47,417 nt of DNA from Deltaproteobacteria bacterium (GTDB lineage: Bacteria; Desulfobacterota; Deferrimicrobia; J040): assembly GCA_003696505.1 (NCBI GenBank), contig RFHC01000063.1, forward strand, positions 1 to 47,417. The letters are read 5' to 3'. Shown here piece after piece: positions 13,336-45,030 of this stretch (the first letter of the stretch is position 1; every line of letters starts with the position of its first letter). The notes beneath the pieces are model-generated. The model did not search any database. It was not told the DNA's origin and was given only the letters and a program-made list of their open reading frames with translations. Made by a program: the position numbers and the translations under genes.

Positions 13336-13336
13336 G

Positions 13337-14554: not shown

Positions 14555-14566
14555 CTCATCCTCCCT

Positions 14567-16021: not shown

Positions 16022-16022
16022 T

Positions 16023-17003: not shown

Positions 17004-17004
17004 G

Positions 17005-17868: not shown

Positions 17869-17887
17869 CGTCTCCCCTCAACCCACC

Positions 17888-19069: not shown

Positions 19070-19088
19070 TTGCCCCCTCCTTTCTTTT

Positions 19089-19805: not shown

Positions 19806-19806
19806 G

Positions 19807-20514: not shown

Positions 20515-21662
20515 TCTCCCCCCTTTTTCAGGCAGTGCCTGGCAATAATGAGCCTCTGAATTTCTGACGTCCCCTCGTAAATTCTCGTGAGGCGGAGGTC
20601 TCTGTAAAATCGCTCCACTGGAAGGTCCTTCATGTATCCCATCCCCCCATGGACCTGGAGCGCCCGGTCAGCTATCTCGCACGCCTTCTCTGTGGCGAAA
20701 AGTTTTGCCATCGCCACACGGTGAGGAATCTTCTTCCCCTCGTCCATTTCCGCAGCGGCGGAGTAAATCATATTTTCCATTGCGTATATCTCCACGGCGG
20801 AATCGGCGATCATCCACTGGATCGCCTGAAAGCTCCCGATGGGCTTCCCGAAGGCAACCCTCTGATTCGCGTGCTCCACCATCATTTCGAGGAGCTTCCT
20901 GGCTGCGCCGAGGGCGCTGGCGGCTATTATGAGACGACCCTTGTCGAGGACTTCCATGGCGAGGCGGAAGCCCTTCCCCTCTCCGCCCACGACGTTTCCG
21001 GCAGGGACGCGGCAGTCGTCAAAGAAAAGCTCGCAGGTGTGCGACCCGCGGAGCCCCATCTTTTTCTCCGGCGGACCTACAGTGAACCCTGGAGTTCCCC
21101 GCTCTACCAGGAACATGGTGAGTCCGTCGTGCTTTTTCTCCCTGTCTGTCACGGCAATGACAGAAAAGAGGGAGGCTACGTCGGCGTTCGTGATGAACTG
21201 CTTCGTCCCGTTGAGGACGTAATTATCCCCCGCTCTAACGGCACTTGTCTTGATTCCGGCCGCATCGGAGCCTGCGCCGGGCTCAGTGAGTGCGAAGGCA
21301 GTGATGTATTCCCCCGTCGCGATTTTCGGGAGATACTTCTCCTTCTGCTCCGGAGTCCCCGCCAGGACGAGTCCGGTAACTCCAATACCGTTGTTCGTGC
21401 TGATAATCGTCCGGAAACACGCGTTGGTTCTCCCCATCTCCTCCATAACGGCGCACTGCCCCGTTACGGAGAAACCGAAGCCTCCGTACTCCTCGGGGAC
21501 GCTCATCCCGAAAAGGCCGAGCTGCCGCATCTTCGAGATGATCTCCTCAGGAATTCTGTCTTCCTCTTCAACCTGTGCGGATATCGGTTCAAGTTCCGTC
21601 TTGACGAATTTCCTCACCGTCTGGATGAAAATCTCCTCCTCCCGTTTCAGGACAATCCTCAT
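20508..21662 (-). CDS. Acyl-CoA dehydrogenase (short/medium-chain type)
   Basis: 384 aa with FALTEPGAGSDAAG, the catalytic-base region IYEGTSEIQRLIIAR, and GGMGYMKDLPVERFYRD. Confidence 0.9.
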   Translation of the reverse strand: MRIVLKREEEIFIQTVRKFVKTELEPISAQVEEEDRIPEEIISKMRQLGLFGMSVPEEYGGFGFSVTGQCAVMEEMGRTNACFRTIISTNNGIGVTGLVLAGTPEQKEKYLPKIATGEYITAFALTEPGAGSDAAGIKTSAVRAGDNYVLNGTKQFITNADVASLFSVIAVTDREKKHDGLTMFLVERGTPGFTVGPPEKKMGLRGSHTCELFFDDCRVPAGNVVGGEGKGFRLAMEVLDKGRLIIAASALGAARKLLEMMVEHANQRVAFGKPIGSFQAIQWMIADSAVEIYAMENMIYSAAAEMDEGKKIPHRVAMAKLFATEKACEIADRALQVHGGMGYMKDLPVERFYRDLRLTRIYEGTSEIQRLIIARHCLKKGGEC

Positions 21663-21951: not shown

Positions 21952-23412
21952 TTACTTCTTCGCCAGAACCTTCTCGAAGAGTTTAATCGCCTCCTGCGCG
22001 TCCTCCTTGACCTTATCAAGGACGGCCTCGGCGTATTCCACGTTGTGGAATCCGTTGCCCAGTTTCACGAATCGGTAGTTGTAACGGGCCCTGTTGAGCT
22101 TTATCATCGCCCGTCGGAAATCGTCGTTCCTCGTCCTGACGGAGCGGGCGAGCTCCTCCGCGCGCTCGAGAATGGGGGCTGTCGCCTCGAGAGCTTCCTC
22201 AACCGTGCTCTTCCACTCGTCAAGAACTCCCTCATAGTCCTCGCCGTGGCATCCGATGCAGGCGGCCTCGGAGGCCTTGTAGGTCTGGCCGGTGAATTCC
22301 GCCTCGCCGGCCCCTACCTCCGGGACCTTGTGACAGCCGATGCAGTCAACCTGGGCGAGGAACATGACAGATGGCATCCTTTCAACGCCCTTTGCTCCCG
22401 TCCCGGCGTACATCTCTTTTGTAGCGTTGTGCTTGTTCTCGTGGCAGATGGAGCAGTCGTACTGGAGGGGTTCAACAGCCGTCCTCACCTTATGCTTGAT
22501 TTCGAAGTGACAGTGTGTGCAGTCCACCTTGTGTTCCGTCACGTGCATTCTGTGGATGAAGACCGTGTCCTCATACCTGGAGAGTCGTTTCTCGTCGTTG
22601 TGACACTGGAAACAGCGGTCCTTGGGAGCATCTCCCGTCCCCTGGATGGCGTCGAGGTGGCAATTCTGACAGTCCACTTTCCTCTCGCCGACGAAGTCCT
22701 GGTGATTGAAGGTGACTCCCTCAAACTCGATATCCTGCTTCGGGGCAGTGTGACAGGATGGACAACCTCCGATGGGCTCTTCCTGCCGCCCCTTGACCAT
22801 CCCCTTGAAGTGACAGAGGAAGCAGGTGTTCTCCGTCACCTCCATGTGATTTCCCACGACGATCTGGCTGTGACACGACGTGCACCTGAGCTTCTTTCCC
22901 CTTCTCTCCTGGGTCAGATGGGGTTTGTGGTCGAACTTGATCCCTCTCTTGAAGATGACCTGCCCCTCCAGGAGGCGCTTCTCGTGGCATCCCTTCCTGA
23001 GACAGGAATCGTCGCTAATCTCTGCGTAGGGCTTCGAGCTGTAGGTTCGCGTCACGTACTTCACCACCTGGGAAACAGCCTGGAACTTGAGCCAGAGCTT
23101 TTCCCTCAACTCCGGAGGGTAGTGGCAGTCCACGCAGGGAACGTGGTTGTGGCTCGAGGTTTTCCACGCCTCGTAGTAAGGCTTCATTATGTGACAGGAA
23201 CTGCAGAAGTAGGGACTGGTGGAGAACTCGAACATACCGATGGAAAAGATGAGAAAGAGGACCCCCAGGAACCCGAGAAACTTGAAGAATCTCGGGCGGA
23301 TGTGTAGCTTGTCCTCTTTCCCCTCGGGGATGTGCATCCCCAGGGTCTCGAGGACCCGGTGTTTCTTCCTGCCCCCTTCATTCCCCTTTTTGTCTCCACT
23401 GCCTGTAACCAT
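21952..23412 (-). CDS. NapC/NirT-like membrane-anchored multiheme cytochrome c (11 CxxCH plus 1 CX4CH)
   Basis: 486 aa. After one TM helix (FLGFLGVLFLIFSIGMF) comes FCSSCHIMKPYYEAWKTSSHNHVPCVDCH, the classic NapC/NirT opening. The remaining motifs are CTSCH, CFLCH, CPSCH, CQNCH, CFQCH, CTHCH, CSICH, CIGCH and CIGCH, plus CLRKGCH. The RBS is GAAGGAAGG. Confidence 0.85.
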   Translation of the reverse strand: MVTGSGDKKGNEGGRKKHRVLETLGMHIPEGKEDKLHIRPRFFKFLGFLGVLFLIFSIGMFEFSTSPYFCSSCHIMKPYYEAWKTSSHNHVPCVDCHYPPELREKLWLKFQAVSQVVKYVTRTYSSKPYAEISDDSCLRKGCHEKRLLEGQVIFKRGIKFDHKPHLTQERRGKKLRCTSCHSQIVVGNHMEVTENTCFLCHFKGMVKGRQEEPIGGCPSCHTAPKQDIEFEGVTFNHQDFVGERKVDCQNCHLDAIQGTGDAPKDRCFQCHNDEKRLSRYEDTVFIHRMHVTEHKVDCTHCHFEIKHKVRTAVEPLQYDCSICHENKHNATKEMYAGTGAKGVERMPSVMFLAQVDCIGCHKVPEVGAGEAEFTGQTYKASEAACIGCHGEDYEGVLDEWKSTVEEALEATAPILERAEELARSVRTRNDDFRRAMIKLNRARYNYRFVKLGNGFHNVEYAEAVLDKVKEDAQEAIKLFEKVLAKK

Positions 23413-23436: not shown

Positions 23437-24738
23437 TTACTCCTCCCGGTCCCCTTCTTCCCGGCGCACCTGGAAGAGTTTCGCCACGAAGAGGAGACCG
23501 AGGATGAGGAAGAGTCCGGACCCGGCGAGGGCCACCCGCACCCTCAGCCTGTCCTGGGCACGCATCTTCTCCACTTCCTCTTCAGCGATACGTATCTGGT
23601 CATCGGCGTCGATGAGGTTTCGCCGAAGAATCCCGGGATTGAGAGCGTGGGTTTTGGGCCTCATCTGGACGAACTGAGCAGACAATTCCGTGACAGCGCT
23701 TTCAAGCCTGTCGATGAACTTCCCCGTTTTTTTCGCTTCTTCGAGGACGCCTGTCAGCTCCTCGAGCTTTTCCTGAACGAAGAGAATTTTCTCCTTTAAC
23801 TCCTGTCCCACCTTATACGCCTCTTCGGACTCGTCGTGGCAGTAACCGCAGTGTCCTTCTTCGCTCCCGTCAAACATGGCCGGCGTGGGAAGGTCGTTTT
23901 TGTGATTTCCATGGCAGTCGACGCAGCGCGGCTCACCCGTTTCCTTAACGGCCTCGCCGTGAGGGCCCATCCTGAAATACTCGTAAATGTTGGAGTGACA
24001 GTTACCGCACACGTTCGGCACCTCCTCAACGCCGGGAGGCCGGGCACCGTGGATTCCGTGACAGGTAGCGCAGTTCGGAACGAGGAGAGGGTTTTTCCCC
24101 TCAACTTCCCCGTACAGGATTTTCCCGTGGTACCCCTTGCGGTAGAGGTCGTACTGGTTTGCCGGGATACCGTACTTCGACATCAGTTCTTCGTTGGCGT
24201 GGCACTTCGCGCAGGTTTCCGGCACGTTCGTGTGAAATACAGATGAGAGAGGGTCGCTCTTTTTCCTGATTTCGTGGGTCCCGTGACAGCTCACGCAGGT
24301 GGCGACGTTCGGGTCTCCCTGAGCGAGGAGAATTCCGTGCTGGCTCGTCTTGTACTCCTCCCACTGGTCCGTCCGGAGGTTATACTGCTTCATCATCTTC
24401 ACATCGGAATGGCACGAACCGCAGAGTTCCGGTATCTCAAAGGGTGTTGGCACTCCCCGGAAGTTGTACTTCTCGCTCATCGAATCTTCCGAGGTGATGT
24501 ATGGATTTCCCCCGTGGCAGACGTCGCAGGTAATACCCACTTTCCGGTGAATGCTCTTCTCCCATCCATCTGCGGAGACTTTCATCCTCCCGCCCAGCTG
24601 GTAATGGCAGTTGTAACAACTGTTGTCCGTCTCTACCTTTCCGTGGGCAATTCCCCCGGTAAAAATCACACCGCACATCAGGAGGATGACGCAGAGGACG
24701 ACGGCGGCAACATTTCGCTTTGACCGGTTCTCCCTCAT
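23437..24738 (-). CDS. Nonaheme c-type cytochrome with N-terminal signal/anchor and C-terminal TM helix
   Basis: The start is set to the ATG at 24738 (MRENRSKRN), which forms an ATGA overlap with the upstream stop. The nine CxxCH motifs are CYNCH, CDVCH, CGSCH, CVSCH, CAKCH, CATCH, CGNCH, CVDCH and CGYCH. It shows the repeated pattern CxxCHGxHxI...DPLSSV...TCxKCH. The C-terminal helix is VALAGSGLFLILGLLFVAKLF. Confidence 0.85.
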   Translation of the reverse strand: MRENRSKRNVAAVVLCVILLMCGVIFTGGIAHGKVETDNSCYNCHYQLGGRMKVSADGWEKSIHRKVGITCDVCHGGNPYITSEDSMSEKYNFRGVPTPFEIPELCGSCHSDVKMMKQYNLRTDQWEEYKTSQHGILLAQGDPNVATCVSCHGTHEIRKKSDPLSSVFHTNVPETCAKCHANEELMSKYGIPANQYDLYRKGYHGKILYGEVEGKNPLLVPNCATCHGIHGARPPGVEEVPNVCGNCHSNIYEYFRMGPHGEAVKETGEPRCVDCHGNHKNDLPTPAMFDGSEEGHCGYCHDESEEAYKVGQELKEKILFVQEKLEELTGVLEEAKKTGKFIDRLESAVTELSAQFVQMRPKTHALNPGILRRNLIDADDQIRIAEEEVEKMRAQDRLRVRVALAGSGLFLILGLLFVAKLFQVRREEGDREE

Positions 24739-25172
24739 CACGAGAAATACCCCCAGGCCGTGAAGATGATGTAGAGTATGGCGAGCGTTATCCCGATTCT
24801 CAGGGCGTACGGCCTCTCTGAGGGACGAACGGACGGATTTCTGTCTATGAAAGGAAGGAAGAAGAGGAGGAGGCCGATTACTCCCTGGGCGAGAATGCCT
24901 ATGATTTTCGGCGCCCACATTCCGATGAACTGGAGCTTATCAGCGGCCTTCAAAAACTGGTACGCCGCCAGGAAGTACCACTCGGGTTTGATGTGTTCCG
25001 GCGTGACGTAAGGGTCTGCTTTTGGAAGGTAGGGAGGAGGGAAAAAGGCCGCAAGGGAAACGAGTAGCGCCATGAGGATGCAGATGAGAACGAGTTGCTT
25101 CAATATGTGGTTCGGATAAAAGGGCTCAGACCCGTATTTCCAGGTTTTTTCCTTTTCCACGGTTCCCTCCAT
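24738..25172 (-). CDS. Cytochrome b C-terminal domain protein (b6f subunit IV-like)
   Basis: It has the PEHIKPEWYFLAAYQFLK block and three TM helices. I chose the ATG at 25172, 7 nt after the cytochrome b6-like stop. The track ORF begins at a TTG at 25202 instead, so the start is uncertain. Confidence 0.8.
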   Translation of the reverse strand: MEGTVEKEKTWKYGSEPFYPNHILKQLVLICILMALLVSLAAFFPPPYLPKADPYVTPEHIKPEWYFLAAYQFLKAADKLQFIGMWAPKIIGILAQGVIGLLLFFLPFIDRNPSVRPSERPYALRIGITLAILYIIFTAWGYFS

Positions 25173-25179
25173 GAGTCTC

Positions 25180-25953
25180 TCAAAGCGGGTCGGCAATGCC
25201 AAGCCGACGAATCATTAGGAAGTGAACGGTCAGAAAAAGCATCGTTATCCCGGGAAGGATGACGACGTGCATCGCGAAGAACCTCGTGAGCGCGAGCTGT
25301 CCCACATCGTGTCCCCCCCGGATGAGGTATTTCAGCGTTTCCCCCACAAGGGGGATGGCTGACACTCCCTCCGTCCCCACCGTCGTCGCCCAGTAAGAGA
25401 GCTGATTCCAGGGGAGGAGGTACCCGGAAAAGCCGAAACCGAGGGTGAGTGCGAGGAGAACCACTCCCGAAACCCAGGTAAGCTCCCTCGGTGGCTTATA
25501 AGCGCCCGTGAGGAACACGCGGAGCATGTGGAGGAAGACCATCACGATGAGGAGGCTCGCCCCCCACGCGTGCATTCCCCGAATGAGCCATCCGAAAGGG
25601 ACCTGTCCTGTTATCTCCATCACAGACTGATACGCCTCTGAGACCGTGGGCCGGTAGTAAAAAAGGAGGAGCACTCCCGTGAGAATCTGAACGAGGATGA
25701 GAACGAAGGACATTCCGCCGAGGCACGCGAGCAGGTTCGTCTCCAGTTTCGTCCGGTAGTGAGGCGCCGGTTTTTTCAACTGCTGGGCCAGTGCCTCGTC
25801 GAAGTCGAGCCTGTCGTCCAGGGCCCCGTAGAGGAACCCGATGAGGGACATGAGGTTGAGGATGTCTATGTATGCCCGCTTTTTCGTCTCTTCCAGGTCG
25901 GTCTGAGGTTGCCTCTCCGTATCGTTTTTCTGACTCCCTGTCATTCCCCTCAT
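25180..25953 (-). CDS. Cytochrome b N-terminal domain protein (cytochrome b6-like)
   Basis: 257 aa with HAWGASLLIVMVFLHMLRVFLTGAYKPPRELTWVSGV and RFFAMHVVILP blocks carrying the heme-ligating His residues. Its start overlaps the Rieske stop by 4 nt. Confidence 0.85.
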   Translation of the reverse strand: MRGMTGSQKNDTERQPQTDLEETKKRAYIDILNLMSLIGFLYGALDDRLDFDEALAQQLKKPAPHYRTKLETNLLACLGGMSFVLILVQILTGVLLLFYYRPTVSEAYQSVMEITGQVPFGWLIRGMHAWGASLLIVMVFLHMLRVFLTGAYKPPRELTWVSGVVLLALTLGFGFSGYLLPWNQLSYWATTVGTEGVSAIPLVGETLKYLIRGGHDVGQLALTRFFAMHVVILPGITMLFLTVHFLMIRRLGIADPL

Positions 25954-26378
25954 CCTCCAACGACGATTTTGTCACCGGCCACTCTCGCGTCGTACACCCT
26001 CAGCGGAGAGGGGGGAGGGCCTGCAAGGACGGAACCGTTCAGGTCGAATTTCCCTCCGTGGCAGGGGCAGGAGATGAACCCCTCCTTTTTATACATGACG
26101 ATGCACCCCAGGTGGGTGCAGACGGCGGAAAGCGCGTAGACCCTATCGCCCGTCCTGACCACGATAACCTTGTCCCCCCGGAAGGGATACACCTTGTACC
26201 CGTTAAGGGGGACCTCTTCCAGCGGAACGGACAACGCCTCTCCCGACGTGCGGGCCCCGCTCCTCGGCCAGAGAAATGAGATAACCGGGTAGAGGACAGA
26301 GAGCCCGATCACTCCGCCGACGAGAGCGATGAGTCCGTTGAGGAACTTTCTCCGGGTCGTCTTCCCTTCCTCCGCCAT
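25950..26378 (-). CDS. Rieske [2Fe-2S] protein with twin-arginine signal
   Basis: 142 aa. It has a TRRKFLNGL Tat motif followed by a TM helix. The cluster boxes are CTHLGC and CPCHGG. Confidence 0.9.
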   Translation of the reverse strand: MAEEGKTTRRKFLNGLIALVGGVIGLSVLYPVISFLWPRSGARTSGEALSVPLEEVPLNGYKVYPFRGDKVIVVRTGDRVYALSAVCTHLGCIVMYKKEGFISCPCHGGKFDLNGSVLAGPPPSPLRVYDARVAGDKIVVGG

Positions 26379-26385
26379 GAGAGCA

Positions 26386-26766
26386 TCACTCCTCTTCGAT
26401 GAATTCCTCGTATTCCTCTTCGGTCATCAACTCTTCCAGCTCGTCGGGGTCGGAAATTTCGATTTCGACGAGCCAACCCTTCCCGAAGGGATCAGTGTTT
26501 ATCAGGGAAGGGTCGTCGATGACGTTTTCGTTCACATTGATGATGGTCCCGGATATGGGAGAGATGAGCTCCGCCACGGCCTTCTGCGACTCTATCTCTC
26601 CGAAGCTGTCTCCGGCGTCGACGTAGGTGTCCGCGTCCGTCAGGTTCACCTCGTCAATCTGCCCCAGTTGCTCCTGCGCGAAATCCGTTATTCCCAGGCG
26701 GGCCACATCTCCGTCGACGAGAACCCACACGTGGTCCTCTGAAAATCTCAGTCTCTCTTCGCCCAT
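26386..26766 (-). CDS. gcvH: Glycine cleavage system H-type lipoyl carrier protein
   Basis: 126 aa with the HVWV..DGDVARLGITDFAQEQLG opening, the lipoyl-lysine block GEIESQKAVAELISPISG, and an acidic C-terminus. Confidence 0.85.
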   Translation of the reverse strand: MGEERLRFSEDHVWVLVDGDVARLGITDFAQEQLGQIDEVNLTDADTYVDAGDSFGEIESQKAVAELISPISGTIINVNENVIDDPSLINTDPFGKGWLVEIEISDPDELEELMTEEEYEEFIEEE

Positions 26767-27477: not shown

Positions 27478-27571
27478 GGAGGGGTGCCGGAGCCTGGCTG
27501 AACGGGGCCGACTCGAAATCGGCTTGGCGGTTAGCCCCGCCACGGGGGTTCGAATCCCTCCCCCTCCGCCA
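27478..27571 (+). tRNA. tRNA-Ser (anticodon CGA), CCA encoded
   Basis: Acceptor stem GGAGGGG/CCCCTCC. Anticodon stem GCCGA/TCGGC with loop CTCGAAA. Long variable arm (GGCGG..CCGCC), T-loop GGGGGTTCGAATCCCTC, and 3-prime GCCA. Confidence 0.9.
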
Positions 27572-37952: not shown

Positions 37953-38028
37953 GACCGTCACCCCTCCAGGATAATTATACCACGTTTTTCAATGATATAG
38001 GCTATGTTGTGGTCTCTCGACCGACGTC

Positions 38029-38044
38029 ACACAATATATTGTGG
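38029..38044. promoter_or_regulatory. NrdR box upstream of nrdJ
   Basis: ACACAATATATTGTGG is 15/16 self-complementary and fits the NrdR operator consensus acaCwAtATaTwGtgt. A degenerate half-site (TATGTTGTGG within 37997..38012) lies 32 bp away, which is the usual tandem spacing. Confidence 0.6.
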
Positions 38045-38138
38045 CATTCACTCAGTGTCAAGGAGAAATGTGGAGCAGAAGGAAATTTTTCGGAAGGAAT
38101 TTCGAATTACCGAAGATGCGAAGCAATAAAACGTCGTT

Positions 38139-38381
38139 TCATTTTAACCGGGATATCCTCTTCACGATTTCCGGGCGTATTCCCGGAGGTGCCGGGTCTC
38201 CCCTGAAGAGCATCCCTTCAAGGTCCCGGTCCTCCATCTCCAGGAGACGGAGAAATTCCTCTCGCTCCTCTCGACTCAACCCCTCCCACTCCCTTTCGAA
38301 GAAGTCGAGAAGGAGGGTCTCCAGTTCGAGGGTGGAGCGTCGGGAGCAGAGGAAACGAACTTTCCTGGTCACTTCGTTCAC
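38139..38381 (-). CDS. SdhE/YgfY-family FAD assembly factor (DUF339)-like protein
   Basis: 80 aa with a GTG start 5 nt after GGAGGA. The block CSRRSTLELETLLLDFF...FLRLLEMEDRDL matches the RRGxLELD...helical pattern of SdhE-like flavinylation factors. Confidence 0.6.
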   Translation of the reverse strand: MNEVTRKVRFLCSRRSTLELETLLLDFFEREWEGLSREEREEFLRLLEMEDRDLEGMLFRGDPAPPGIRPEIVKRISRLK

Positions 38382-38469
38382 CCGAATCCTCCAGGAGTTT
38401 CATTTTAACACTCCCCCGGCCCCGGGAGAAGAGAGACAAAAAATTTGCCTTCTCTTCCAGAATTCGCTA

Positions 38470-38484
38470 TGTATATTGTATACA
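38470..38484. promoter_or_regulatory. 7-1-7 palindrome in the divergent promoter region of the second cytochrome operon
   Basis: TGTATAT-T-GTATACA, with the half-sites complementary at 6 of 7 positions. The geometry is that of Fur-family operators. It lies 111-125 nt upstream of the 9-heme cytochrome ATG and 89-103 nt upstream of the SdhE-like start. Confidence 0.35.
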
Positions 38485-38594
38485 GTCGACAGATAGGGCA
38501 GTGAACCCGGAAAAAGGCGTTCTCCGCAGTGAACTTTCCTCAGGACCGGGTGAGAATCACGACCTCCACCCGGCGGAGAAAGGGGGTTCCCCAG

Positions 38595-39668
38595 ATGAAG
38601 TGGAGAGTTGCTGCCCTCTTCCCTCTCATTCTCATTCTCTTCCTTCCCCTCGCCCCGAAAACATCTCAAGGAGAGTGGGTCGGACAGTCCCGCTGCCTCG
38701 TCTGCCACGGGAAGAGGGAGTACCGTTTTTACAAAAAAGGAGGATACGCGAAGAACCTCTACGTCTCACTCGAAGAACTCAGAGCATCCGTCCACAAAGA
38801 GAAGTTTTGCTCCGACTGCCACACCGACGTGGTGGAACTCCCCCACAGGGGAACGCCTTCCCGCGTCTCCTGTACCACCTGTCACTACAAGGGGAACCCT
38901 GAAGGAGCGCCCCAGCTGGATGCATATCTGGAGTACGAAAGGAGCATTCACGGGCTCGAAGCGAAAGAGGGGAATCCGGATGCTCCCCTCTGCCAGGACT
39001 GCCACGGGTCCCACAACGTCCGTCCCCCCGAAGACCCCCTCTCGACGGTGAACAAAAGGAACGTCGCGCGCACCTGCGGGAAGTGCCACATCGACATCTA
39101 CGCCGAGTTCAGGACGAGCATCCACGGCGTTGCCGTCGCACGGGGGGTGGAGGACGCTCCTTCCTGCCCCGACTGCCACGGCGAACACAACATCCTCGAG
39201 CCGACGAATCCGGAGTCTACGGTCTACCCCTCCCACGTGCCGACGCAGTGCTCGAAGTGCCACGCCCGGGAGGCGATTCGGGAAAAGTACGGGATCAAAG
39301 CGGAGCCCGTCAAGACGTACAGGGAGAGTTTCCACGGAGTGGCCATAGAATTCGGCGCGAGGACCGTGGCAAACTGCGCCTCCTGCCACGGGACACACGA
39401 CATTCGCCCGCCTGAAGACCCCCTCTCTTCCGTCAATCCTGAGAACATCCCGAAAACCTGCGGGAAGTGCCACCCCGGCGCGACGCCGAAATTCGCGGAG
39501 GGGAAGATTCACATAGACCCGACGAAGAAAGAGGCAGGCGCCGTCTACTACGTGGCCTCCTTCTTCAAATACCTCACCATCACGACGATGCTCGGGCTTA
39601 TCTGCCACATCCTCCTCGACCTGTACGGGAGGGTCAGGAGGATGAGGAGAAAGGAGAGAATGAGATGA
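38595..39668 (+). CDS. Nonaheme c-type cytochrome with signal peptide and C-terminal TM helix
   Basis: The start is at the ATG at 38595 ([17 protein letters not shown]) after GGAGAAAGGGGG. The nine CxxCH motifs are CLVCH, CSDCH, CTTCH, CQDCH, CGKCH, CPDCH, CSKCH, CASCH and CGKCH. It shows the repeated pattern CxxCHGxHxI.PPEDPLS.VN..N...TCGKCH. The C-terminal helix is [24 protein letters not shown]. Confidence 0.85.
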
Positions 39669-40585
39669 GCTCCAGAGAGAAAGAACTGATCGACCTCCTC
39701 GTGAAAGAAGCGGAAGACGAATTCCTCAGGACGGCTGGAGACCTCCCCCCCGAAGAACTGGAGAGAATCCGGCAGAAGGTGCGGGAGAGAGCGCGGGCAG
39801 AGGCGGAGAGAGAGGTGAGGAGACTCCTCCGGAAGAGGGAGGAAGAGGAGAAGAGGGAAAGAGAAAGAGTGGAGGAGGAAGAGGAGTACTTCATCCGTTT
39901 CAACCGGAACTTCCGGTTCCAGCACATGGTCCTCTTCACATCCGTCATCATCCTCATCATCACGGGACTCCCCCTGAAGTTCCCCGACTTCGCCCTCTCC
40001 CGCTGGCTCATGAGCCTGTGGGGAGGAGTCAAGTACAGCACCGTCATTCACCGGATTGGCGCAACGATGCTCATCTACTTCATGGTCCACCACCTCCTCT
40101 ACACGCTCCTGAGCAGGGACGGGAGGAGAGACTTCATCATGCTCATCCCCACACCCAAAGACTTCCGCGATTTTTTCCAGAACATCCGCTACTTCGTCGG
40201 GAAGACGGAGGACCCGCCGAAGTTTGACCGCTTCTCTTACATCGAGAAGTTCGACTACTGGGCCGTCTACTGGGGATGCGTCATCATGATCGGGTCGGGC
40301 CTCATCCTCTGGTTCGAGGAAACGGCCATGAAGTTCCTCCCCAAGTTCTGGGTCGACATGGCCCACGAGGCCCACTCGGACGAGGCCCTCCTGGCAACCC
40401 TTGCCATCGTCATCTGGCACTTCTACAACGTCCACTTCAACCCCGACAGGTTCCCGGGGACACTTTTGTGGTGGCACGGAAAGATCTCGAAAGAGGAGAT
40501 GCTCAAGGAGCACCCGCTGGAGTACGAGCGCATCATGGCTGAAAGGGCCCGCCGAAAAGAGGCGGGAGAGGAGGGGAGACAATGA
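39665..40585 (+). CDS. FdnI/HydC-type diheme cytochrome b (4 TM) with a charged N-terminal extension
   Basis: The start ATG at 39665 overlaps the upstream stop (ATGA). Four predicted helices carry His residues ([54 protein letters not shown]), as in Ni/Fe-hydrogenase and formate dehydrogenase b-type subunits. The first 75 aa or so are Glu/Arg/Lys-rich. Confidence 0.8.
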
Positions 40586-42564
40586 GGGAGATGATATCCG
40601 ATTTCTTCCGCTTCCTCGGGGAATACCGGCGGCCCATCCTGAAAATCGTGATTTTCCTCCTCATCCTCTTCGTCGCATACAACGGTGTCTTCTTTATCTC
40701 CCTGAACCACCCGAAATCGTGCACCGTCTGCCACTACATGGACCCTTACTACGAGCAGTGGAAGAGTTCCTCACACAACGGGGTGAAGTGCCTCAAGTGC
40801 CACACCTTCAAGCCTCTCTTTATCACGGTGACGACGGTCAAGTACCTGACGGGGACTTACAACCCCAGACCTCACGCCGTCGTGAAAGACGATTCGTGCC
40901 TCTCGAAGGGATGCCACTCCCTCCGTCTGGAGAAACCTGAAGTCCCCTTCGCAGAGGAGGTGGTCTTCGACCACAAGGAACACATGGAAAAACTCAAGCG
41001 GGGGGAGAAACTCACCTGCACCTCCTGCCACTACCAGGTTGTCCAGGGGGAGCACATGACCGTGGACTCCCGTGTCTGCTTTCTCTGCCACTTCAAGGGA
41101 ACGGGCCCGGGACAGGCCGTGGGGGGATGCACTTCCTGTCACAGAAACCCGGGAGAGGTGGAAACGCACGTGGGCTTCCGATTCAATCACGCCCCTTACC
41201 TGAAGAGAGGGCTCGAGTGCCACAACTGCCACCTCCGGGTTGCCGAAGGAACGGGAAAAGTTGAGAAGGACCGTTGCTATTCCTGCCACGTGGAGAGGAA
41301 GAGGGAGAAACTCGACCGCATCTCGCTCCACAAAATCCACGTCACCGGCCAGCACCTTCCCTGCCTCTCCTGCCACGAGGAGATACGCCACGAAATCGTC
41401 GAAATGGCGAAGATGTTCGGAGGGAACTGCACGTCCTGCCACGGGTCTCTCCACGAGGAAAAGGAGGAAATCTATATGGGGACAGGTGCCCGGGGAATTC
41501 CCCCATCCCCTTCCCTCATGTTCGTCGCCCAGGTCGCCTGTGACGGCTGTCACAAAGGTGCTGTCCGGGGAGAAACGAAGGGGGAAAGGCAGATTTCCGC
41601 TCTCAGGCAGACCTGCGTGGAGTGCCACTCCACGGAGTACGGAAAGATGCTGAACACGTGGATGACATGGGGGGAGAGAATTATCAAAGAAACGAAGAAG
41701 GTGAGAGCCAGAGGGCGGGTCCTCCTCGCGAAGGCGAAGGAGAAGGGAATAAAGGACGCTGTCTCCCTGCTGGAGGACATATCCGCCAACGCAGAGCTCC
41801 TGGAAAGGGGAGTCCCTGCCCACAACATCACCTTCGCCTGGGAGATAGCCAGGACTGCCTACACTCAGTACAGCATCGCCGCAGGTTATCTGGGGGAGAA
41901 GCCTCTCCCCCTCCCCGACTTCCTCTCCTCTCCCGAGAAGACCTGCATCTCCCTCTGCCACGGCGACCTGGGAATACCCGGAGATGTGGAAGTTGAATCC
42001 CTCGGGACGGCATTTCCCCACTCCACCCACCGGGAAGACCTGGGCCTTCCCTGCACCCGGTGCCATACGCCGGAAAAACACCGGGTCGAGAAGTTCCGAC
42101 CCGGGGAATGCACAGGCTGCCACCACGGCGGGGAAGCAGAGCTCGAGTGCGCCACCTGCCACGTGAAGACATCGGCCCTTTACGCGGGGAAGAGCGATGG
42201 AAACCTCCCCCCGTCGGAGATGTTCGAGGCGGAAGTCAACTGCACGGACTGTCACGGAGAGGGAAGCCACATCTCCGCCGACACGCGAAAAATAAGAGAA
42301 AGGTGCATCGAATGTCACGACGAATCCTACGGGGAAACTCTGGAGGAATGGCTTGACGCATCCGCAGAGGTGAGAAAGCGCGGGGAAAAACTCCTGGAGG
42401 AACTCCTCCTCGTCACGGAAAAGAGGGAAAACCCCGACGAGAAGGCTCTGCTGGAAGAAACGAGAAAACTCGTTTCCTCCATACTCGCTGCCAATCCGGT
42501 CCACAATCTGGATGGGGCGGAGAAAGCCCTCGCAGAGGGCGAGAAAGCGCTGAGGAAGGAATAG
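40582..42564 (+). CDS. NapC/NirT-like membrane-anchored multiheme cytochrome c (16 CxxCH plus CX4CH and CX3CH)
   Basis: 660 aa, with an ATGA overlap to the cytochrome b gene. After the TM helix ([21 protein letters not shown]) comes [29 protein letters not shown]. It is colinear with the 21952..23412 protein over about 440 aa, and a 5-heme C-terminal extension follows. Confidence 0.85.
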
Positions 42565-42662: not shown

Positions 42663-42739
42663 CGGGGCGTGGCGCAGCCTGGCAGCGCACTTGCCTTGGG
42701 AGCAAGGGGTCGCCGGTTCAAATCCGGCCGCCCCGACCA
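42663..42739 (+). tRNA. tRNA-Pro (anticodon UGG), CCA encoded
   Basis: Acceptor stem CGGGGCG/CGCCCCG, D-stem GCGC/GCGC, anticodon stem CTTGC/GCAAG with loop CTTGGGA, and T-arm GCCGGTTCAAATCCGGC. A TATAAT lies at 42644..42649 upstream. Confidence 0.9.
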
Positions 42740-42847: not shown

Positions 42848-44875
42848 TCACTGCAATCTGACAGCCACTCCCATCGTCGAGTCCGTGGACCCCGGGTAAC
42901 AATTTCCTGAACCGCCGCTGCAGGAAGAATCGGAATTCTGAGGAATATCGTCCGTGTCTATCGGGGTCCACACCAAACCGACATCACCCGTCTCATCGAT
43001 AGCGATTCTGGCCACGTAGGCGCCGTCGGCTGGCGAGTAGATTTTATACACGGGAATCGCGATGCCCCCGGAGCAGGTCGCATCGCTCAGGGGAAGATCT
43101 TCTCCGTAACACTCCGTAACGAGCTCAATCGTTCCGTTCCCTGTATCAAAATCGACCAGACCGGAAAACGAATCTTTATGTATGAAAGACCACGAGACAT
43201 CACACGTCGCAGACCCGCAGGACGTGATGGTCACATCACCGTAGGTCACTCCGAAATCGAGGGTCTCGTTCCCGTTTCCCCAGGTCCCGTCGGTATCAGA
43301 AACCTCTGTGTTGACGAGAGAGAGGAACCATCTCCCCTCGATATCCCCGAGGGAGGGATTCTCATCGACGTTGAGAATGAAACCGGTTACCACATTGTGG
43401 TTCCCGGAGTTATCGGGGTCCTTCTCCGTTTTCTGACCCCCCGTGATACCGTTCCCCCGGGAGTTGAGGGCTCCGAAGAACGAGGGGTCAGTGGCCACGT
43501 CAAGGAGACCATCATTCTGGACCGTGACGAAATTGCCGACCGGCGTGCTGTCGCTGGATACGTGCTCGAAGGAGCCATATGTACTCCAGTTCTGGAGCAC
43601 GGAATTGATGTAAACCGGGGAGAAATCGGTAACAGAGCGCCACTCCACCGTGCTCGGGGTCTGGCCCTGAGCGTCAGCGTCGATAACCAGCAGACTGCTT
43701 CCCTGCAGAGTCACTCCTGCCGACGGATACGGGTTCGGCTGCGTCTCGTCATACCGAAGGCCAAAGTGGGGAGAAGCTACGAGGTACTTTCCGGTAAAGG
43801 GGGGTGCAGTCGAAGGTTTTTTCACCGCGTAAATCACGTCGTTCTCCCTCATGTCGGAGACGTGGGCTCCCACAAAGGTGGAACAGTCAGACGAAACGGC
43901 ACCCTCCAGGAATCCACCGCCCGTAAAGAAGAGGAAGACCCTGTTTCCCGATTGAACGTATGTCCCCGTCATGGGTCCCTGCGCCGAAGGGTTCACCGGG
44001 TCAACGACGCCCTCGTCGATCGCATCTGTCGTGTCCCAGCTGTCCAGGTTGTGCCTGTGCTCAGCCATTCCTCCCTGGTCGAAAGTTTTCGTCTGGTCCA
44101 CTGAGATTCCGCCGTTTCCGTCGAACGTTGCCACTCCCCATCCCGATATTGCCATCGAATTCCGGAACATGTCGTCAAGTGTCGGGTTCTGGATGAGATT
44201 TCCGGTATCGTCATAGGGGTCTGAACTCAAATTGAAGTGGACGAACCAGTATTCTCCCGAAAGGGTACAGGCACCAGGTTCTTCCACATAATCGACGAGA
44301 CTGACTGTAGGAGGGAGGAGTTCTGCGCTGTTATTGACGCACCTCAGGGTGTCAGCCGTGTTGAAAATCATCTTCACGACCGTGTTGGCATTCGCTTCCA
44401 CGACCACGGGGGACTGAAGGAGAAAAGGAGACGACGACGAACCGTCATTCGTCCACCCCGTTCCCCCGCCATCGTCGGCAGTGGCGAAATAGATTTCCAC
44501 CTGGGCGTCAGGTGGGAGCGAATCGTCGACGAGCAGGGTCTGTGTGACGGGAGAACCGGATCCGCACGGGTCTGGCCCGGAGTAAGAAAACTGATTTTTC
44601 ATGACGAGCTTCAACCTCCTGTAGGTCCCGGCCGGCACCTGTCCCTGGCCGAAAACATCTCCCGGGTTTGCCACCAGGTCGGAAAGAATTCCCCCGGAGT
44701 CACTGAATATCTCTACGGGCATGCCCGAGGAATCCGTCATGAGCGCCGCAGAGTATATCGTCACTTCCAGTCCCGTGGGGTCTTCCGCTTCCAGGTGTGG
44801 GGAGTTCATTACGCCGGCAAAAAGCACCAGGAGGGCAACGGCGAGTCCTGTCAGTATGAGATTTCGTCTTTCCAT
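42848..44875 (-). CDS. Large secreted acidic Gly/Ser/Thr/Asp/Asn-rich protein of unknown function (N-terminal region DUF4382-like, tentative)
   Basis: The start is at the ATG at 44875 (MERRNLILTGLAVALLVLFAGV signal peptide) after GAGGGGGGG. There are no TM helices downstream. Paired Cys residues occur near the C-terminus (TSCGSATC, TECYG...ATCSG, SSCSGGSGNC). The segment LEVTIYSA...DLV...VPAGTYRRLKLVM recalls DUF4382. Confidence 0.75.
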   Translation of the reverse strand: MERRNLILTGLAVALLVLFAGVMNSPHLEAEDPTGLEVTIYSAALMTDSSGMPVEIFSDSGGILSDLVANPGDVFGQGQVPAGTYRRLKLVMKNQFSYSGPDPCGSGSPVTQTLLVDDSLPPDAQVEIYFATADDGGGTGWTNDGSSSSPFLLQSPVVVEANANTVVKMIFNTADTLRCVNNSAELLPPTVSLVDYVEEPGACTLSGEYWFVHFNLSSDPYDDTGNLIQNPTLDDMFRNSMAISGWGVATFDGNGGISVDQTKTFDQGGMAEHRHNLDSWDTTDAIDEGVVDPVNPSAQGPMTGTYVQSGNRVFLFFTGGGFLEGAVSSDCSTFVGAHVSDMRENDVIYAVKKPSTAPPFTGKYLVASPHFGLRYDETQPNPYPSAGVTLQGSSLLVIDADAQGQTPSTVEWRSVTDFSPVYINSVLQNWSTYGSFEHVSSDSTPVGNFVTVQNDGLLDVATDPSFFGALNSRGNGITGGQKTEKDPDNSGNHNVVTGFILNVDENPSLGDIEGRWFLSLVNTEVSDTDGTWGNGNETLDFGVTYGDVTITSCGSATCDVSWSFIHKDSFSGLVDFDTGNGTIELVTECYGEDLPLSDATCSGGIAIPVYKIYSPADGAYVARIAIDETGDVGLVWTPIDTDDIPQNSDSSCSGGSGNCYPGSTDSTMGVAVRLQ

Positions 44876-44886
44876 GATTCCCCCCC

Positions 44887-45030
44887 TCACTGGTTTGTCC
44901 CACCGGAGACGGTGACCGTCCCCTGTGATTGACCATTACCTCCTCCCCCTCCTCCGCAGGAGACGGCGAAGAGAAAAGCAGACAAAAGGAGAGCTACCGC
45001 GATTGCTCTTTTCCCGCTAAATCCTTTCAT
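44887..45030 (-). CDS. 47-aa signal peptide/lipoprotein-like stub
   Basis: Below the ORF-track size cutoff. The ATG at 45030 follows AAAGGAGGAAGGA directly. The protein is MKGFSGKRAIAVALLLSAFLFAVSCGGGGGGNGQSQGTVTVSGGTNQ. It has a hydrophobic core, an AVSC lipobox-like site and then a Gly linker. The TGA at 44887..44889 lies 11 nt before the next gene's ATG. Confidence 0.4.
   Translation of the reverse strand: MKGFSGKRAIAVALLLSAFLFAVSCGGGGGGNGQSQGTVTVSGGTNQ

What the first reader, a model, noticed from the sequence alone, without database searches (positions are those of the whole stretch)
40582..42564. The two NapC/NirT-like cytochromes are paralogs with a conserved non-canonical CX4CH site, and one carries a duplicated 5-heme module
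The proteins at 21952..23412 and 40582..42564 are colinear over about 440 aa. All 11 CxxCH motifs appear in the same order.

Matching blocks (first protein / second protein):
- FCSSCHIMKPYYEAWKTSSHNHVPCVDCH / [29 protein letters not shown]
- KLRCTSCH / KLTCTSCH
- CFLCHFKG in both
- MFLAQVDCIGCHK / [13 protein letters not shown]

Both keep DDSCL(R/S)KGCH. This is a CX4CH arrangement like the atypical heme sites of tetraheme cytochrome c3, so there may be a 12th heme.

The longer paralog adds residues from about 440 to 660 (nt 41899..42564). This region has five more CxxCH motifs plus CISLCH (CX3CH), and it repeats the block [12 protein letters not shown].

A terminal module recurs three times: CxxCH-x3-Y-x3-L-x2-W ([48 protein letters not shown]). 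Each copy is followed by a charged helical stretch of roughly 50-70 aa that runs into an HN dipeptide (GFHN, PAHN, PVHN).
Basis: seen in the sequence. Interest (0 to 1): 0.65.

Follow-up and report, generated by a model that had tools for sequence, protein, structure and literature searches.

The report
Membrane-anchored 12- and 18-heme NrfH–NrfA-like cytochromes
The two genes encode related membrane-anchored cytochromes that carry 12 and 18 hemes, each built from a quinol-oxidase-like head fused to one or two nitrite-reductase-like five-heme modules, and they belong to a large, widespread and uncharacterised family that always sits next to membrane cytochrome b complexes.

Summary
ORF A (21952..23412, minus strand, 486 aa) has 11 CxxCH plus one CX4CH. 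ORF B (40582..42564, 660 aa) has 16 CxxCH plus CX4CH plus CX3CH. They align at 38% identity over 432 aa (E=4e-98).

B's C-terminal part (residues 446-660) is an internal repeat of residues 228-432 (hhalign E=2.6e-35).

Both odd motifs are invariant in 113 homologues. A few homologues carry a plain CxxCH at exactly those positions, so both are very likely real heme sites, giving 12 and 18 hemes.

New points:
- The repeated unit is the NrfA/OcwA-type five-heme module with its three-helix bundle (OcwA E=3.5e-26; NrfA E=2.6e-6).
- The N-terminus is NrfH-like: transmembrane helix, CxxCHxM, E~1e-10.
- The duplication is ancient. 12-, 15-, 18-, 21- and 24-motif forms exist in more than 550 species across many phyla, and A probably lost the second module.
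- A always ends a Rieske/cytochrome b operon, and B always follows an FdnI-like cytochrome b.

Most likely function: inner-membrane electron wires that link the quinol pool to periplasmic or extracellular acceptors. A catalytic heme is not excluded.

This is a new variant of known modules, of moderate interest.

The parts
40582..42564 (+). ORF B, 660 aa: an 18-heme-motif, membrane-anchored cytochrome c. It consists of an NrfH-like head, a heme linker and two NrfA/OcwA-type modules.
   Evidence: The start ATG overlaps the stop of the upstream cytochrome b gene (ATGA).
40627..40701 (+). B residues 16-40: the single N-terminal transmembrane anchor helix. The first heme Cys lies 6 residues after it.
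   Evidence: Kyte-Doolittle 19-mer mean 2.58; AlphaFold2 helix 16-40.
40702..40881 (+). B residues 41-100: the NrfH/NapC-like hemes 1-2. It contains CTVCHYM (CxxCHxM) and W60..S63.H65...C70xxCH.
   Evidence: profile A3 against NrfH 2j7a_C, E=3.7e-11.
40897..40917 (+). B CX4CH site (C106 LSKG C111 H112), here called heme 3.
   Evidence: Invariant in 113/113 homologues. Replaced in place by CxxCH in 4 homologues.
41263..41889 (+). B residues 228-436: the first NrfA/OcwA-type module (hemes 8-12). It includes the three-helix bundle 351-436, the invariant M313, and H414-N415 at nt 41821-41826.
41917..42561 (+). B residues 446-660: the second NrfA/OcwA-type module (hemes 13-18). It contains CX3CH at nt 41944-41961, the extra heme CATCH at nt 42148-42162, the three-helix bundle 582-658, and H641-N642 at nt 42502-42507.
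21952..23412 (-). ORF A, 486 aa: a 12-heme-motif paralogue with an NrfH-like head and one NrfA/OcwA-type module. Landmarks: transmembrane helix residues 40-64 (nt 23221-23295); Lys109, the equivalent of NrfH Lys82 (nt 23086-23088); CX4CH at nt 22984-23004; module at nt 21958-22626; HN at nt 22042-22047.
39665..40585 (+). Partner of B: an FdnI/HydC-type (PF01292) membrane cytochrome b of 306 aa, counted from the internal Met. It has a charged cytoplasmic N-terminal extension.
   Evidence: It lies directly upstream of the B-type gene in 49 of 53 related loci.
38595..39668 (+). MH1: a 9-CxxCH cytochrome c with an N-terminal signal-like segment and a C-terminal hydrophobic helix. It is the first gene of the B operon.
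23437..24738 (-). MH2: a 9-CxxCH cytochrome c with N- and C-terminal hydrophobic segments, directly upstream of A. The likely start is the Met at nt 24738.
   Evidence: It lies upstream of A-type genes in 24 of 44 related loci.
24738..26378 (-). The Rieske/cytochrome b part of the A operon: Rieske 2Fe-2S protein (25950..26378), cytochrome b6-type N-terminal subunit (25180..25953) and subunit-IV-like C-terminal part (24738..~25172).
26386..26766 (-). GcvH-like ORF, the first gene of the Rieske/cytochrome b/MH2/A operon. Its role is unknown.

Best explanation
A and B are old paralogues of one large, uncharacterised family of inner-membrane-anchored, periplasm-facing multiheme cytochromes c.

Each protein has three sections:
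- A single N-terminal transmembrane helix followed at once by an NrfH/NapC-type heme pair. Heme 1 carries the CxxCHxM signature.
- Further hemes, including one attached through CX4CH.
- An NrfA/OcwA-type pentaheme module that ends in a three-helix bundle. The third helix opens with the invariant His-Asn.

A has one such module (12 hemes). B has two in tandem (18 hemes). In B's second copy the heme at the position of the NrfA catalytic heme is attached through CX3CH, and one extra heme has been inserted.

The proteins most likely act as heme wires. They take electrons from the menaquinol pool, either directly at the NrfH-like heme 1 or through their membrane partners. The partner of A is a Rieske/cytochrome b complex plus a 9-heme cytochrome. 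The partner of B is an FdnI-type dihaem cytochrome b plus a 9-heme cytochrome. Electrons then pass through the periplasm to soluble or outer-membrane acceptors, or flow in the reverse direction.

Shown here: the motifs, the homology, the duplication, the membrane anchor, the synteny and the distribution. Inferred: heme occupancy, the axial ligands, quinol reactivity, the direction of electron flow and the acceptor.
For: Paralogy and duplication:
-.
- All C-modules form one clade against all N-modules (NJ split, 98/100 bootstraps). 18-motif forms lie on both sides of the 12-motif A clade in the core tree. So the duplication happened once, long ago, and was later lost in the A lineage.
- 24-motif proteins with three modules also exist.

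Heme sites:
- Invariance.
- In-place CX4CH-to-CxxCH and CX3CH-to-CxxCH replacements.

NrfH-like head:
- Pfam PF03264 and TIGR03153 hits.
- phmmer and profile hits to NrfH 2j7a_C at E=2e-8, 3.7e-11 and 2.6e-10, covering the transmembrane helix, hemes 1-2 and Lys82.
- Foldseek against NrfH: TM 0.53-0.55 on NrfH length, rmsd 3.4-3.7 A, 29-30% identity, probability 1.00.
- Met of CxxCHxM is at least 90% conserved.

NrfA/OcwA module:
- phmmer of A against OcwA 6i5b, E=4e-8. The family profile gives E=3.5e-26 over OcwA 268-503, that is hemes 5-9 plus the helix bundle with '...GVHNYDLAVKLL'.
- NrfA chains at E=2.6e-6 to 2e-4, including 'GFHNP'.
- The Foldseek top hits for both models are only OcwA, NrfA, ONR, MccA, HAO and NrfH.
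- AlphaFold2 three-helix bundles, pLDDT above 90.
- OcwA hemes 5-9 superimpose on the NrfA core (PMC6703420).

Wire rather than enzyme:
- The conserved free ligands are just enough for six-coordination of all hemes except heme 1. The core has 10 His plus Met313 for hemes 2-12. The second module has 5 His plus Met547 for 6 hemes.
- There is no CxxCK motif.

Partners:
- Conserved synteny in 87 loci from many phyla.
- Translational coupling of B to the cytochrome b gene.

Lineage context:
- The relatives are Deferrimicrobiaceae, which have been predicted to be iron reducers with such clusters (PMC9386147).
Against: - Nothing biochemical is known for any member of the family.
I could not check that His414/His641, His291 or Met313/Met547 actually face a heme, or that heme 1 sits at the membrane surface.
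- Foldseek E-values are only 2e-3 to 2e-2, and global TM-scores are low because the matches are to parts of the protein.
- B lacks the 7-residue segment that holds the NrfH Lys82 equivalent, and it scores below Pfam's NapC/NirT cut-off. Its own quinol site is therefore doubtful.
- Having a second quinol-reactive protein (Rieske/cytochrome b, or cytochrome b561) in the same operon is unexplained.
- Homology to an enzyme family (NrfA, ONR, MccA, HAO) leaves a catalytic role open.
- No outer-membrane conduit or terminal acceptor gene is present in the window.
Confidence: 0.62

Rival explanations
1. The proteins are enzymes rather than wires, a natural fusion of an NrfH-type quinol dehydrogenase with NrfA/ONR-type catalytic module(s). 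Heme 8 (C232 in B, C267 in A) occupies the position of the NrfA catalytic heme and of OcwA heme 5. It would be five-coordinate and would reduce a small substrate such as nitrite, hydroxylamine, NO or sulfite with electrons from quinol.
For: - The module is homologous to OcwA hemes 5-9 and to NrfA, and structurally to ONR, MccA and HAO.
- OcwA heme 5 is five-coordinate with CxxCH, not CxxCK, and reduces nitrite and hydroxylamine (PMC6703420).
- The invariant His291 (B) / His328 (A) aligns with His380 of the non-ligating OcwA His380-His381 pair above that heme (PMC9250108).
- The ligand count is exact only if His291 and Met313 are both ligands. One open site is therefore possible.
- Anammox Rieske/cytochrome b complexes are known, from my own knowledge, to include HAO-like octaheme subunits.
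Against: - There is no CxxCK motif.
- OcwA His381, the non-bonding distal histidine, is not conserved here.
- The module has an extra F-x-H-x-x-H pair (H250/H253) that OcwA lacks. This supplies additional ligands.
- In B's second module the pocket position is taken by the proximal His of an inserted heme, which suits electron transfer better than catalysis.
- The module number varies from 1 to 3, which is typical of wires.
- No nitrogen- or sulfur-oxide metabolism genes are nearby.
Confidence: 0.17
2. The B-type protein is an outer-membrane or cell-surface terminal Fe(III) reductase with 16 hemes. This was suggested for what appears to be its orthologue in Candidatus Deferrimicrobium borealis.
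For: - PMC9386147 describes a cluster of four multiheme cytochromes and two cytochromes b. The fourth cytochrome has 16 CxxCH motifs and was proposed, on 24% identity to MtrA, to be an outer-membrane terminal reductase.
- The gene order in L001/L002 matches that description.
- OcwA, the closest solved relative of the module, is a cell-surface reductase.
Against: - The N-terminus is a 25-residue hydrophobic helix with heme 1 only six residues after it, exactly as in the inner-membrane anchor of NrfH. There is no lipobox or cleavable signal pattern that I could see.
- The gene is translationally coupled to an inner-membrane cytochrome b gene.
- No porin gene is adjacent in any of the loci inspected.
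- The heme count ignores the invariant CX4CH and CX3CH sites.
- I did not verify by sequence that the protein in that paper is the orthologue.
Confidence: 0.05
3. The CX4CH and CX3CH motifs are not heme sites but structural or metal-binding cysteines, giving 11 and 16 hemes. On this view the similarity between A and B reflects only generic multiheme composition.
For: No direct evidence of occupancy exists. Atypical spacings can need special maturation in some systems, for example the CX15CH site of MccA (from my own knowledge).
Against: - E=4e-98 with composition adjustment.
- Strict invariance of Cys, Cys and His.
- Replacement by canonical CxxCH at the same alignment position in several homologues.
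- The CX3CH aligns with a canonical CxxCH of the first module.
- CX4CH and CX3CH sites bind heme in Desulfovibrio cytochromes c3 (established knowledge).
Confidence: 0.04

Closest known systems
NrfH (Desulfovibrio vulgaris; PDB 2j7a/2vr0) and the NapC/NirT/CymA family of membrane-anchored quinol dehydrogenases
   Same: - A single N-terminal transmembrane helix followed immediately by heme 1 with CxxCHxM.
- The W..S.H....C.xCH block and heme 2.
- In A, a Lys at the position of NrfH Lys82.
- Sequence E~1e-10 and Foldseek TM~0.54 on NrfH length.
   Different: - NrfH has 4 hemes and about 150 aa, and it docks onto a separate NrfA. Here the head is fused to 8 or 14 further hemes.
- The third site is CX4CH.
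- NrfH Asp89 is not conserved.
- B lacks the Lys82 segment and falls below the Pfam cut-off.
OcwA of Thermincola potens (PDB 6i5b) and, more distantly, NrfA, ONR, MccA and HAO: the NrfA-type 'C-terminal module' of Soares et al. 2022
   Same: - Five hemes in the same order.
- The motif ...KEM.(Y/N).G..G...PS.M(F/Y).A.V.C..CH.
- The last heme followed by Y...L..W and a three-helix bundle whose third helix begins G.HN.
- A conserved Met where OcwA has the PSVMY Met, and OcwA heme 9 is His/Met coordinated.
- Profile E=3.5e-26 to OcwA and 2.6e-6 to NrfA.
   Different: - OcwA is a soluble or surface nonaheme protein with a c554-like N-terminal half and two five-coordinate hemes.
- Here the module follows an NrfH-like head and can be repeated one to three times.
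- It has an added FxHxxH ligand pair and lacks OcwA His381.
- In the second copy it uses CX3CH and has a sixth heme.
Geobacter sulfurreducens inner-membrane quinol:cytochrome c oxidoreductases (ImcH, CbcL, CbcBA and the predicted Cbc3-6)
   Same: - Inner-membrane multiheme c-type cytochromes paired with or fused to HydC/FdnI-type cytochrome b.
- Several such units are clustered together.
- Relatives of this locus carry a CbcL-like fusion of a multiheme domain with a cytochrome b domain (PMC13591261).
   Different: - I did not test sequence homology to the Geobacter proteins.
- None of those proteins is described as carrying NrfA-type modules with helix bundles or 12 to 18 hemes.
- Linkage to a Rieske/cytochrome b operon is not a feature of ImcH, CbcL or CbcBA.
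Tetraheme cytochrome c3 (Desulfovibrio)
   Same: It contains CX4CH heme-attachment motifs (established knowledge). Pfam c3/c7 models hit parts of A and B.
   Different: The Pfam c3 hits lie at B198-287 and do not cover the CX4CH at B106. The resemblance concerns motif spacing only, not an orthologous site.

Membership tests
NapC/NirT (NrfH/CymA) quinol dehydrogenase family, PF03264 / TIGR03153 | Score above the curated family cut-off | tested here: inconclusive
   For PF03264, A scores 46.8 bits against a 24.1 cut-off (met) and B scores 19.4 bits (not met). For TIGR03153 NrfH, A scores 62.8 and B 44.9 against a 134.2 cut-off, so neither is an NrfH equivalog.
NapC/NirT (NrfH/CymA) quinol dehydrogenase family, PF03264 / TIGR03153 | A single N-terminal transmembrane helix with heme 1 directly after it, and the NrfH-type CxxCHxM motif | tested here: met
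   Hydropathy and AlphaFold2 helices. CTVCHYM in B and CSSCHIM in A, with the Met at least 90% conserved. Alignment to NrfH residues 20-82.
NapC/NirT (NrfH/CymA) quinol dehydrogenase family, PF03264 / TIGR03153 | A tetraheme (or pentaheme) protein of about 150-200 aa | tested here: not met
   12 and 18 heme motifs in 486 and 660 aa. Only the head is NrfH-like.
NapC/NirT (NrfH/CymA) quinol dehydrogenase family, PF03264 / TIGR03153 | Quinol-site residues of NrfH (Lys82, Asp89) | tested here: inconclusive
   The Lys82 equivalent is present in A (K109, at least 90% conserved in the A clade). It is deleted in B (alignment). The Asp89 equivalent was not found.
NapC/NirT (NrfH/CymA) quinol dehydrogenase family, PF03264 / TIGR03153 | Menaquinol oxidation activity | not testable with these tools
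   This needs biochemistry.
NrfA / ONR / OcwA / MccA / HAO superfamily (NrfA-type C-terminal module) | Sequence-detectable homology of the five-heme core in conserved order | tested here: met
   phmmer of A against 6i5b_A, E=4e-8. Profile A2 against 6i5b_A, E=3.5e-26. NrfA chains at E=2.6e-6 to 2e-4.
NrfA / ONR / OcwA / MccA / HAO superfamily (NrfA-type C-terminal module) | Three long C-terminal helices after the last heme | tested here: met
   AlphaFold2: B 351-388/391-410/412-436 and 582-614/618-637/639-658; A 396-424/430-452/458-485, with pLDDT above 90. The Foldseek top hits are restricted to this superfamily plus NrfH, although E is only 2e-3 to 2e-2.
NrfA / ONR / OcwA / MccA / HAO superfamily (NrfA-type C-terminal module) | A five-coordinate catalytic heme (CxxCK, or CxxCH with an open distal pocket) | tested here: inconclusive
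   There is no CxxCK. The count of conserved ligands allows full six-coordination but only just.
Class III cytochrome c3 (PF02085) | A tetraheme c3 fold that contains the CX4CH sites | tested here: not met
   PF02085 matches B198-287 and A231-324 only. The CX4CH at B106/A137 lies outside the match.
Cbc-type cytochrome bc quinol:cytochrome c oxidoreductase clusters (Geobacter CbcL/CbcBA-like) | A HydC/FdnI-type cytochrome b (PF01292) encoded with multiheme c-type cytochromes | tested here: met
   Window 39665..40585 scores 51.6 bits on PF01292. Synteny is conserved in 49 of 53 loci.
Cbc-type cytochrome bc quinol:cytochrome c oxidoreductase clusters (Geobacter CbcL/CbcBA-like) | Sequence orthology to characterised Geobacter subunits | not tested

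The most novel reading that the evidence does not exclude
The family is a fused, membrane-anchored 'NrfH-NrfA' type of respiratory enzyme. In this reading each NrfA-type module keeps a substrate-binding heme: heme 8, and the CX3CH heme 13 in the long form. A single polypeptide, docked to a Rieske/cytochrome b or FdnI-type cytochrome b complex, would then couple quinol oxidation directly to reduction (or oxidation) of a small inorganic substrate. This would define an unrecognised respiratory complex that is widespread in Deferrimicrobia, Acidobacteriota, Gemmatimonadota, Methylomirabilota, Planctomycetota and other phyla.
Probability: 0.15. Interest if true: 0.8.

Novelty: new variant of a known kind. 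Interest (0 to 1): 0.5.

Why it matters
They are annotated only as 'cytochrome c3 family' or 'NapC/NirT family' proteins.

This analysis shows four things:
- The proteins are built from an NrfH-type quinol-dehydrogenase head and one to three NrfA/OcwA-type modules.
- They carry 12, 18 or 24 hemes once the invariant CX4CH and CX3CH sites are counted.
- They sit in the inner membrane.
- They are fixed partners of Rieske/cytochrome b or FdnI-type cytochrome b complexes.

Together these points give a concrete, testable model for how such organisms move electrons from the quinol pool into the periplasm.

The analysis also corrects heme counts and a published localisation guess. It adds a clear case of 'grafting' and tandem repetition of the NrfA module to the evolutionary picture of multiheme cytochromes.

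Tried and rejected
1. A recent, genome-specific duplication in B. Rejected: the same 18-motif string occurs in 144 of 237 homologues, and the C-modules are monophyletic.
2. Chance similarity from CxxCH richness. Rejected by E=4e-98 and hhalign E=2.6e-35.
3. The CX4CH belongs to a c3 domain. Rejected: the Pfam c3 hits lie elsewhere.
4. Testing directly whether the HN histidine, His291 and Met313 contact hemes. Not possible: structure prediction returns no coordinates and /data holds none.
5. Aligning the CX4CH with NrfH heme 3. The sequence alignments to NrfH stop at residue 82. Only the TIGR03153 model coverage (positions 10-136 of 138 on A49-184) and the 107-112-column Foldseek match suggest it, so this stays open.
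6. Literature searches for a description of this architecture. They found only the Deferrimicrobium genome paper, which mentions the cluster, and papers on OcwA, NrfA and the Geobacter Cbc proteins. One search failed on term syntax.
7. A search of protein representatives with B's second module alone. It gave 385 hits, mostly the same family or fragments of it, and no new context.
8. The promoter/terminator scan around the B operon was uninformative.
9. A Pfam survey of the rest of the window found no cytochrome maturation, porin or nitrogen/sulfur-oxide genes.


Full report
**Observation**

The two ORFs exist as stated. A is 21952..23412 on the minus strand (486 aa) and B is 40582..42564 on the plus strand (660 aa).

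A carries 11 CxxCH motifs and one CX4CH (C137LRKGCH). B carries 16 CxxCH, one CX4CH (C106LSKGCH) and one CX3CH (C455ISLCH).

BLASTP gives 38% identity over 432 residues, E=4e-98. A second alignment places B449-650 on A261-465 at E=1e-13. A profile-profile comparison of B446-660 against B1-445, using an 82-sequence family alignment, gives 99.9% probability and E=2.6e-35, aligned to residues 228-432. The paralogy and the internal repeat are therefore real and far beyond compositional chance.

**Are the odd motifs heme sites?**

A search of the 5.8-billion-protein collection with B found 752 relatives at E<=1e-10, and a search with A found 2620.

In 113 full-length relatives of B, down to about 30% identity, the following are invariant or nearly so:
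- every Cys and His of the 16 CxxCH motifs;
- the CX4CH and the CX3CH;
- His414-Asn415 and His641-Asn642.

The same holds in an 81-sequence alignment centred on A.

Writing each protein as the string of Cys-Cys spacings gives 224222222222322222 for 144 of 237 proteins and 224222222222 for 55.

Four relatives (P0102, P0104, P0106, P0110) have a canonical CxxCH exactly where the others have CX4CH, for example DRSCLKCH. Four (P0104, P0108, P0109, P0110) have CxxCH in place of CX3CH. The CX3CH of the second module also aligns with a canonical CxxCH of the first module.

This is the pattern expected of true heme-attachment sites. I therefore count 12 hemes in A and 18 in B. Occupancy itself is inferred, not shown.

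**What the parts are**

*The N-terminus.* In both proteins it is a single hydrophobic helix (Kyte-Doolittle 2.2-2.6; AlphaFold2 helices B16-40 and A40-64). Heme 1 follows within about six residues, and its motif is CxxCHxM. This part matches the NrfH quinol dehydrogenase of Desulfovibrio vulgaris (2j7a_C):
- phmmer of A: E=2e-8.
- Profile of the head region: E=3.7e-11.
- Whole-family profile: E=2.6e-10.
- The match covers NrfH residues 20-82, that is the transmembrane helix, hemes 1 and 2 and Lys82.
- Foldseek on the A model finds NrfH with TM 0.53-0.55 (normalised to NrfH), rmsd 3.4-3.7 A, 29-30% identity.

A keeps a Lys (K109) at the Lys82 position. B has a seven-residue deletion there and scores below Pfam's NapC/NirT cut-off (19.4 against 24.1 bits; A scores 46.8).

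It is the NrfA-type module.
- A aligns to the outer cell wall cytochrome OcwA of Thermincola potens (6i5b) at E=4e-8. The family profile aligns at E=3.5e-26 over OcwA residues 268-503. That stretch is OcwA's last five hemes and its helix bundle, including '...SPSVMYKAGVTCVDCH...', 'CSSCH...DYLQNVIDTW' and 'NGVHNYDLAVKLL'.
- The same profile reaches bona fide NrfA chains at E=2.6e-6 to 2e-4, through the last hemes and the bundle with 'GFHNP'.
- AlphaFold2 models (B: pLDDT 85.8, pTM 0.71; A: pLDDT 80.1) place three long helices after heme 12 and again after heme 18, with HN at the start of helix 3.
- Foldseek returns only OcwA, NrfA, octaheme nitrite reductases, MccA, HAO and NrfH as meaningful hits. 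The E-values are modest (2e-3 to 2e-2) because each match covers only part of the query.

According to the OcwA paper (PMC6703420):
- Hemes 5-9 superimpose on the NrfA core.
- Heme 5 is five-coordinate, with a His380-His381 pair above it.
- Heme 9 is His/Met coordinated.
- The three helices are the hallmark shared with NrfA, HAO and MccA.

Soares et al. (PMC9250108) call this unit the NrfA-type C-terminal module.

Counting the atypical sites, B's first module is hemes 8-12 and its second is hemes 13-18. Three consequences follow:
- The CX3CH heme 13 and heme 8 sit at the position of the NrfA catalytic heme.
- The invariant His291 aligns with OcwA His380.
- In the second module that same position is the proximal His of an inserted sixth heme (C523ATCH).

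**History of the duplication**

All second modules, from both the A-like and the B-like sides of the family, form one clade against all first modules (98 of 100 bootstraps). In a tree of the shared 12-heme core, the 12-heme proteins form one group flanked by 18-heme proteins. Forms with 15, 21 and 24 motifs also exist. The 24-motif proteins end in a third G.HN helix.

The duplication is therefore old and family-wide. The short paralogue A most likely descends from a long form by loss. This is suggestive only, because the tree is a midpoint-rooted neighbour-joining tree.

**Genomic context**

B is the last gene of a three-gene operon:
- MH1, a 9-heme cytochrome with a C-terminal helix (38595..39668).
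- An FdnI/HydC-type cytochrome b (39665..40585; PF01292, 51.6 bits).
- B itself, whose ATG overlaps the cytochrome b stop codon.

A is the last gene of a minus-strand operon. The genes, in order of transcription, are:
- a GcvH-like gene;
- a Rieske protein;
- cytochrome b;
- a subunit-IV-like part;
- MH2, a 9-heme cytochrome;
- A itself.

I examined 87 related loci from Deferrimicrobiaceae, Acidobacteriota, Gemmatimonadota, Ignavibacteriota, Planctomycetota, Methylomirabilota, Schekmanbacteria and others.
- B-type genes directly follow the cytochrome b homologue in 49 of 53 cases.
- A-type genes follow the MH2 homologue of a Rieske/cytochrome b operon in 24 of 44 cases.
- In several genomes the two operons are adjacent.

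Close relatives share the ribonucleotide reductase gene upstream, which places the window in or near the Deferrimicrobiaceae.

**Mechanism**

The best-supported reading is that A and B are inner-membrane-anchored heme wires. They connect the quinol pool to periplasmic or extracellular acceptors, or work in reverse. Electrons would enter at the NrfH-like heme 1, or through the partner Rieske/cytochrome b or FdnI-type cytochrome b.

The ligand count fits a wire. Ten conserved free histidines plus Met313 are available for hemes 2-12. Five histidines plus Met547 are available for the six hemes of the second module. Met313 and Met547 align with the Met of OcwA's PSVMY, so the last heme of each module may be His/Met coordinated.

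The HN histidine is invariant and is homologous to the conserved helix-3 His of OcwA and NrfA. I infer that it is an axial ligand. I could not measure this, because the tools do not return the model coordinates.

The enzyme alternative is not excluded (about 0.17). In that reading heme 8 stays five-coordinate as in OcwA and NrfA, and the protein is a fused NrfH-NrfA-like reductase. The ligand count is exact only if both His291 and Met313 bind iron.

A published suggestion holds that the apparent orthologue in Ca. Deferrimicrobium borealis is a 16-heme outer-membrane Fe(III) reductase (PMC9386147). This does not fit the NrfH-type anchor, the coupling to a cytochrome b gene, or the two extra invariant heme sites.

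**Comparison and novelty**

The head works like NrfH/NapC. However, the whole protein is not a member of the tetraheme family, and B fails the Pfam threshold. The module belongs to the NrfA/OcwA superfamily by sequence and by predicted fold, but its catalytic-heme criterion could not be settled. The operons resemble Geobacter Cbc-type quinol:cytochrome c oxidoreductases in composition (PMC13591261), but I did not test homology to those proteins.

I found no paper that describes an NrfH head fused to one to three tandem NrfA-type modules. I rate the finding as a new variant of a known kind, of moderate interest (0.5).

Noticed in passing
window 26386..26766 (-); also L001 10134-10496, L003 13907-14767, L008 7999-8367, L025 4430-4804: A GcvH-like (lipoyl-carrier fold) gene is the first gene of the Rieske/cytochrome b/MH2/A operon. 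It recurs next to these cytochrome clusters in many Deferrimicrobia-like genomes, and in L003 it is fused to a response-regulator receiver domain. Its role in a cytochrome operon is unexplained.
   Followed up: partly
L004 10244-12046; proteins P0178, P0181, P0182, P0206, P0225, P0227, P0232: Some A-type 12-heme proteins (about 600 aa; Schekmanbacteria and others) carry a cytoplasmic N-terminal response-regulator receiver (REC) domain ahead of the transmembrane helix. In L005 a free-standing REC gene precedes the Rieske gene. This hints at phosphorylation-linked control or sensing through the cytochrome.
   Followed up: partly
window 39665..~39900 (+): The FdnI-type cytochrome b partnered with B has a cytoplasmic N-terminal extension of about 75 residues, very rich in Glu, Arg and Lys. 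Orthologues next to B-type genes are 306-345 aa, whereas the other cytochrome b genes of the same clusters are 231-234 aa.
   Followed up: partly
window 37962..38594; compare L001 1982-7054: Close relatives carry a CbcL-like fusion of a multiheme domain with a cytochrome b domain, plus one or two extra multiheme/cytochrome b gene pairs, between the ribonucleotide reductase gene and MH1. The window has only a short gap there. The ORF in that gap (38041..38496) is Ser/Arg-rich with no Pfam hit and is probably not a gene.
   Followed up: partly
proteins P0253, P0265 (about 900-921 aa), P0066/P0068/P0072 (774 aa), P0199 and relatives (about 527 aa): The family has 15-, 21- and 24-heme-motif members. 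The 24-motif proteins look like the core plus two further NrfA-type modules, so the number of modules varies from 1 to 3.
   Followed up: partly
window 42848..44890 (-): A 680-aa ORF with a hydrophobic N-terminus and no Pfam match lies downstream of B, beyond the tRNA-Pro gene. It may be a secreted protein of unknown function.
   Followed up: no
window 42663..42739 (+) and 27478..27571 (+): tRNA-Pro(TGG) lies about 100 nt downstream of B. tRNA-Ser(CGA) lies between the A operon region and mutS2.
   Followed up: yes
window 9744..21662 (-): This stretch holds a block of fatty-acid beta-oxidation genes (acyl-CoA dehydrogenases, enoyl-CoA hydratase, 3-hydroxyacyl-CoA dehydrogenases, thiolase). With them are a sigma-54 activator and a Liv-type branched-chain amino acid ABC transporter. 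The block lies directly downstream of A and has no evident link to the cytochromes.
   Followed up: partly
PMC9386147, section 'Possible mechanisms of iron reduction': The Ca. Deferrimicrobium borealis paper counts 16 hemes (CxxCH only) for what appears to be the B orthologue and proposes an outer-membrane location. The invariant CX4CH and CX3CH sites and the NrfH-type anchor suggest 18 hemes and an inner-membrane location. I did not check orthology by sequence.
   Followed up: partly
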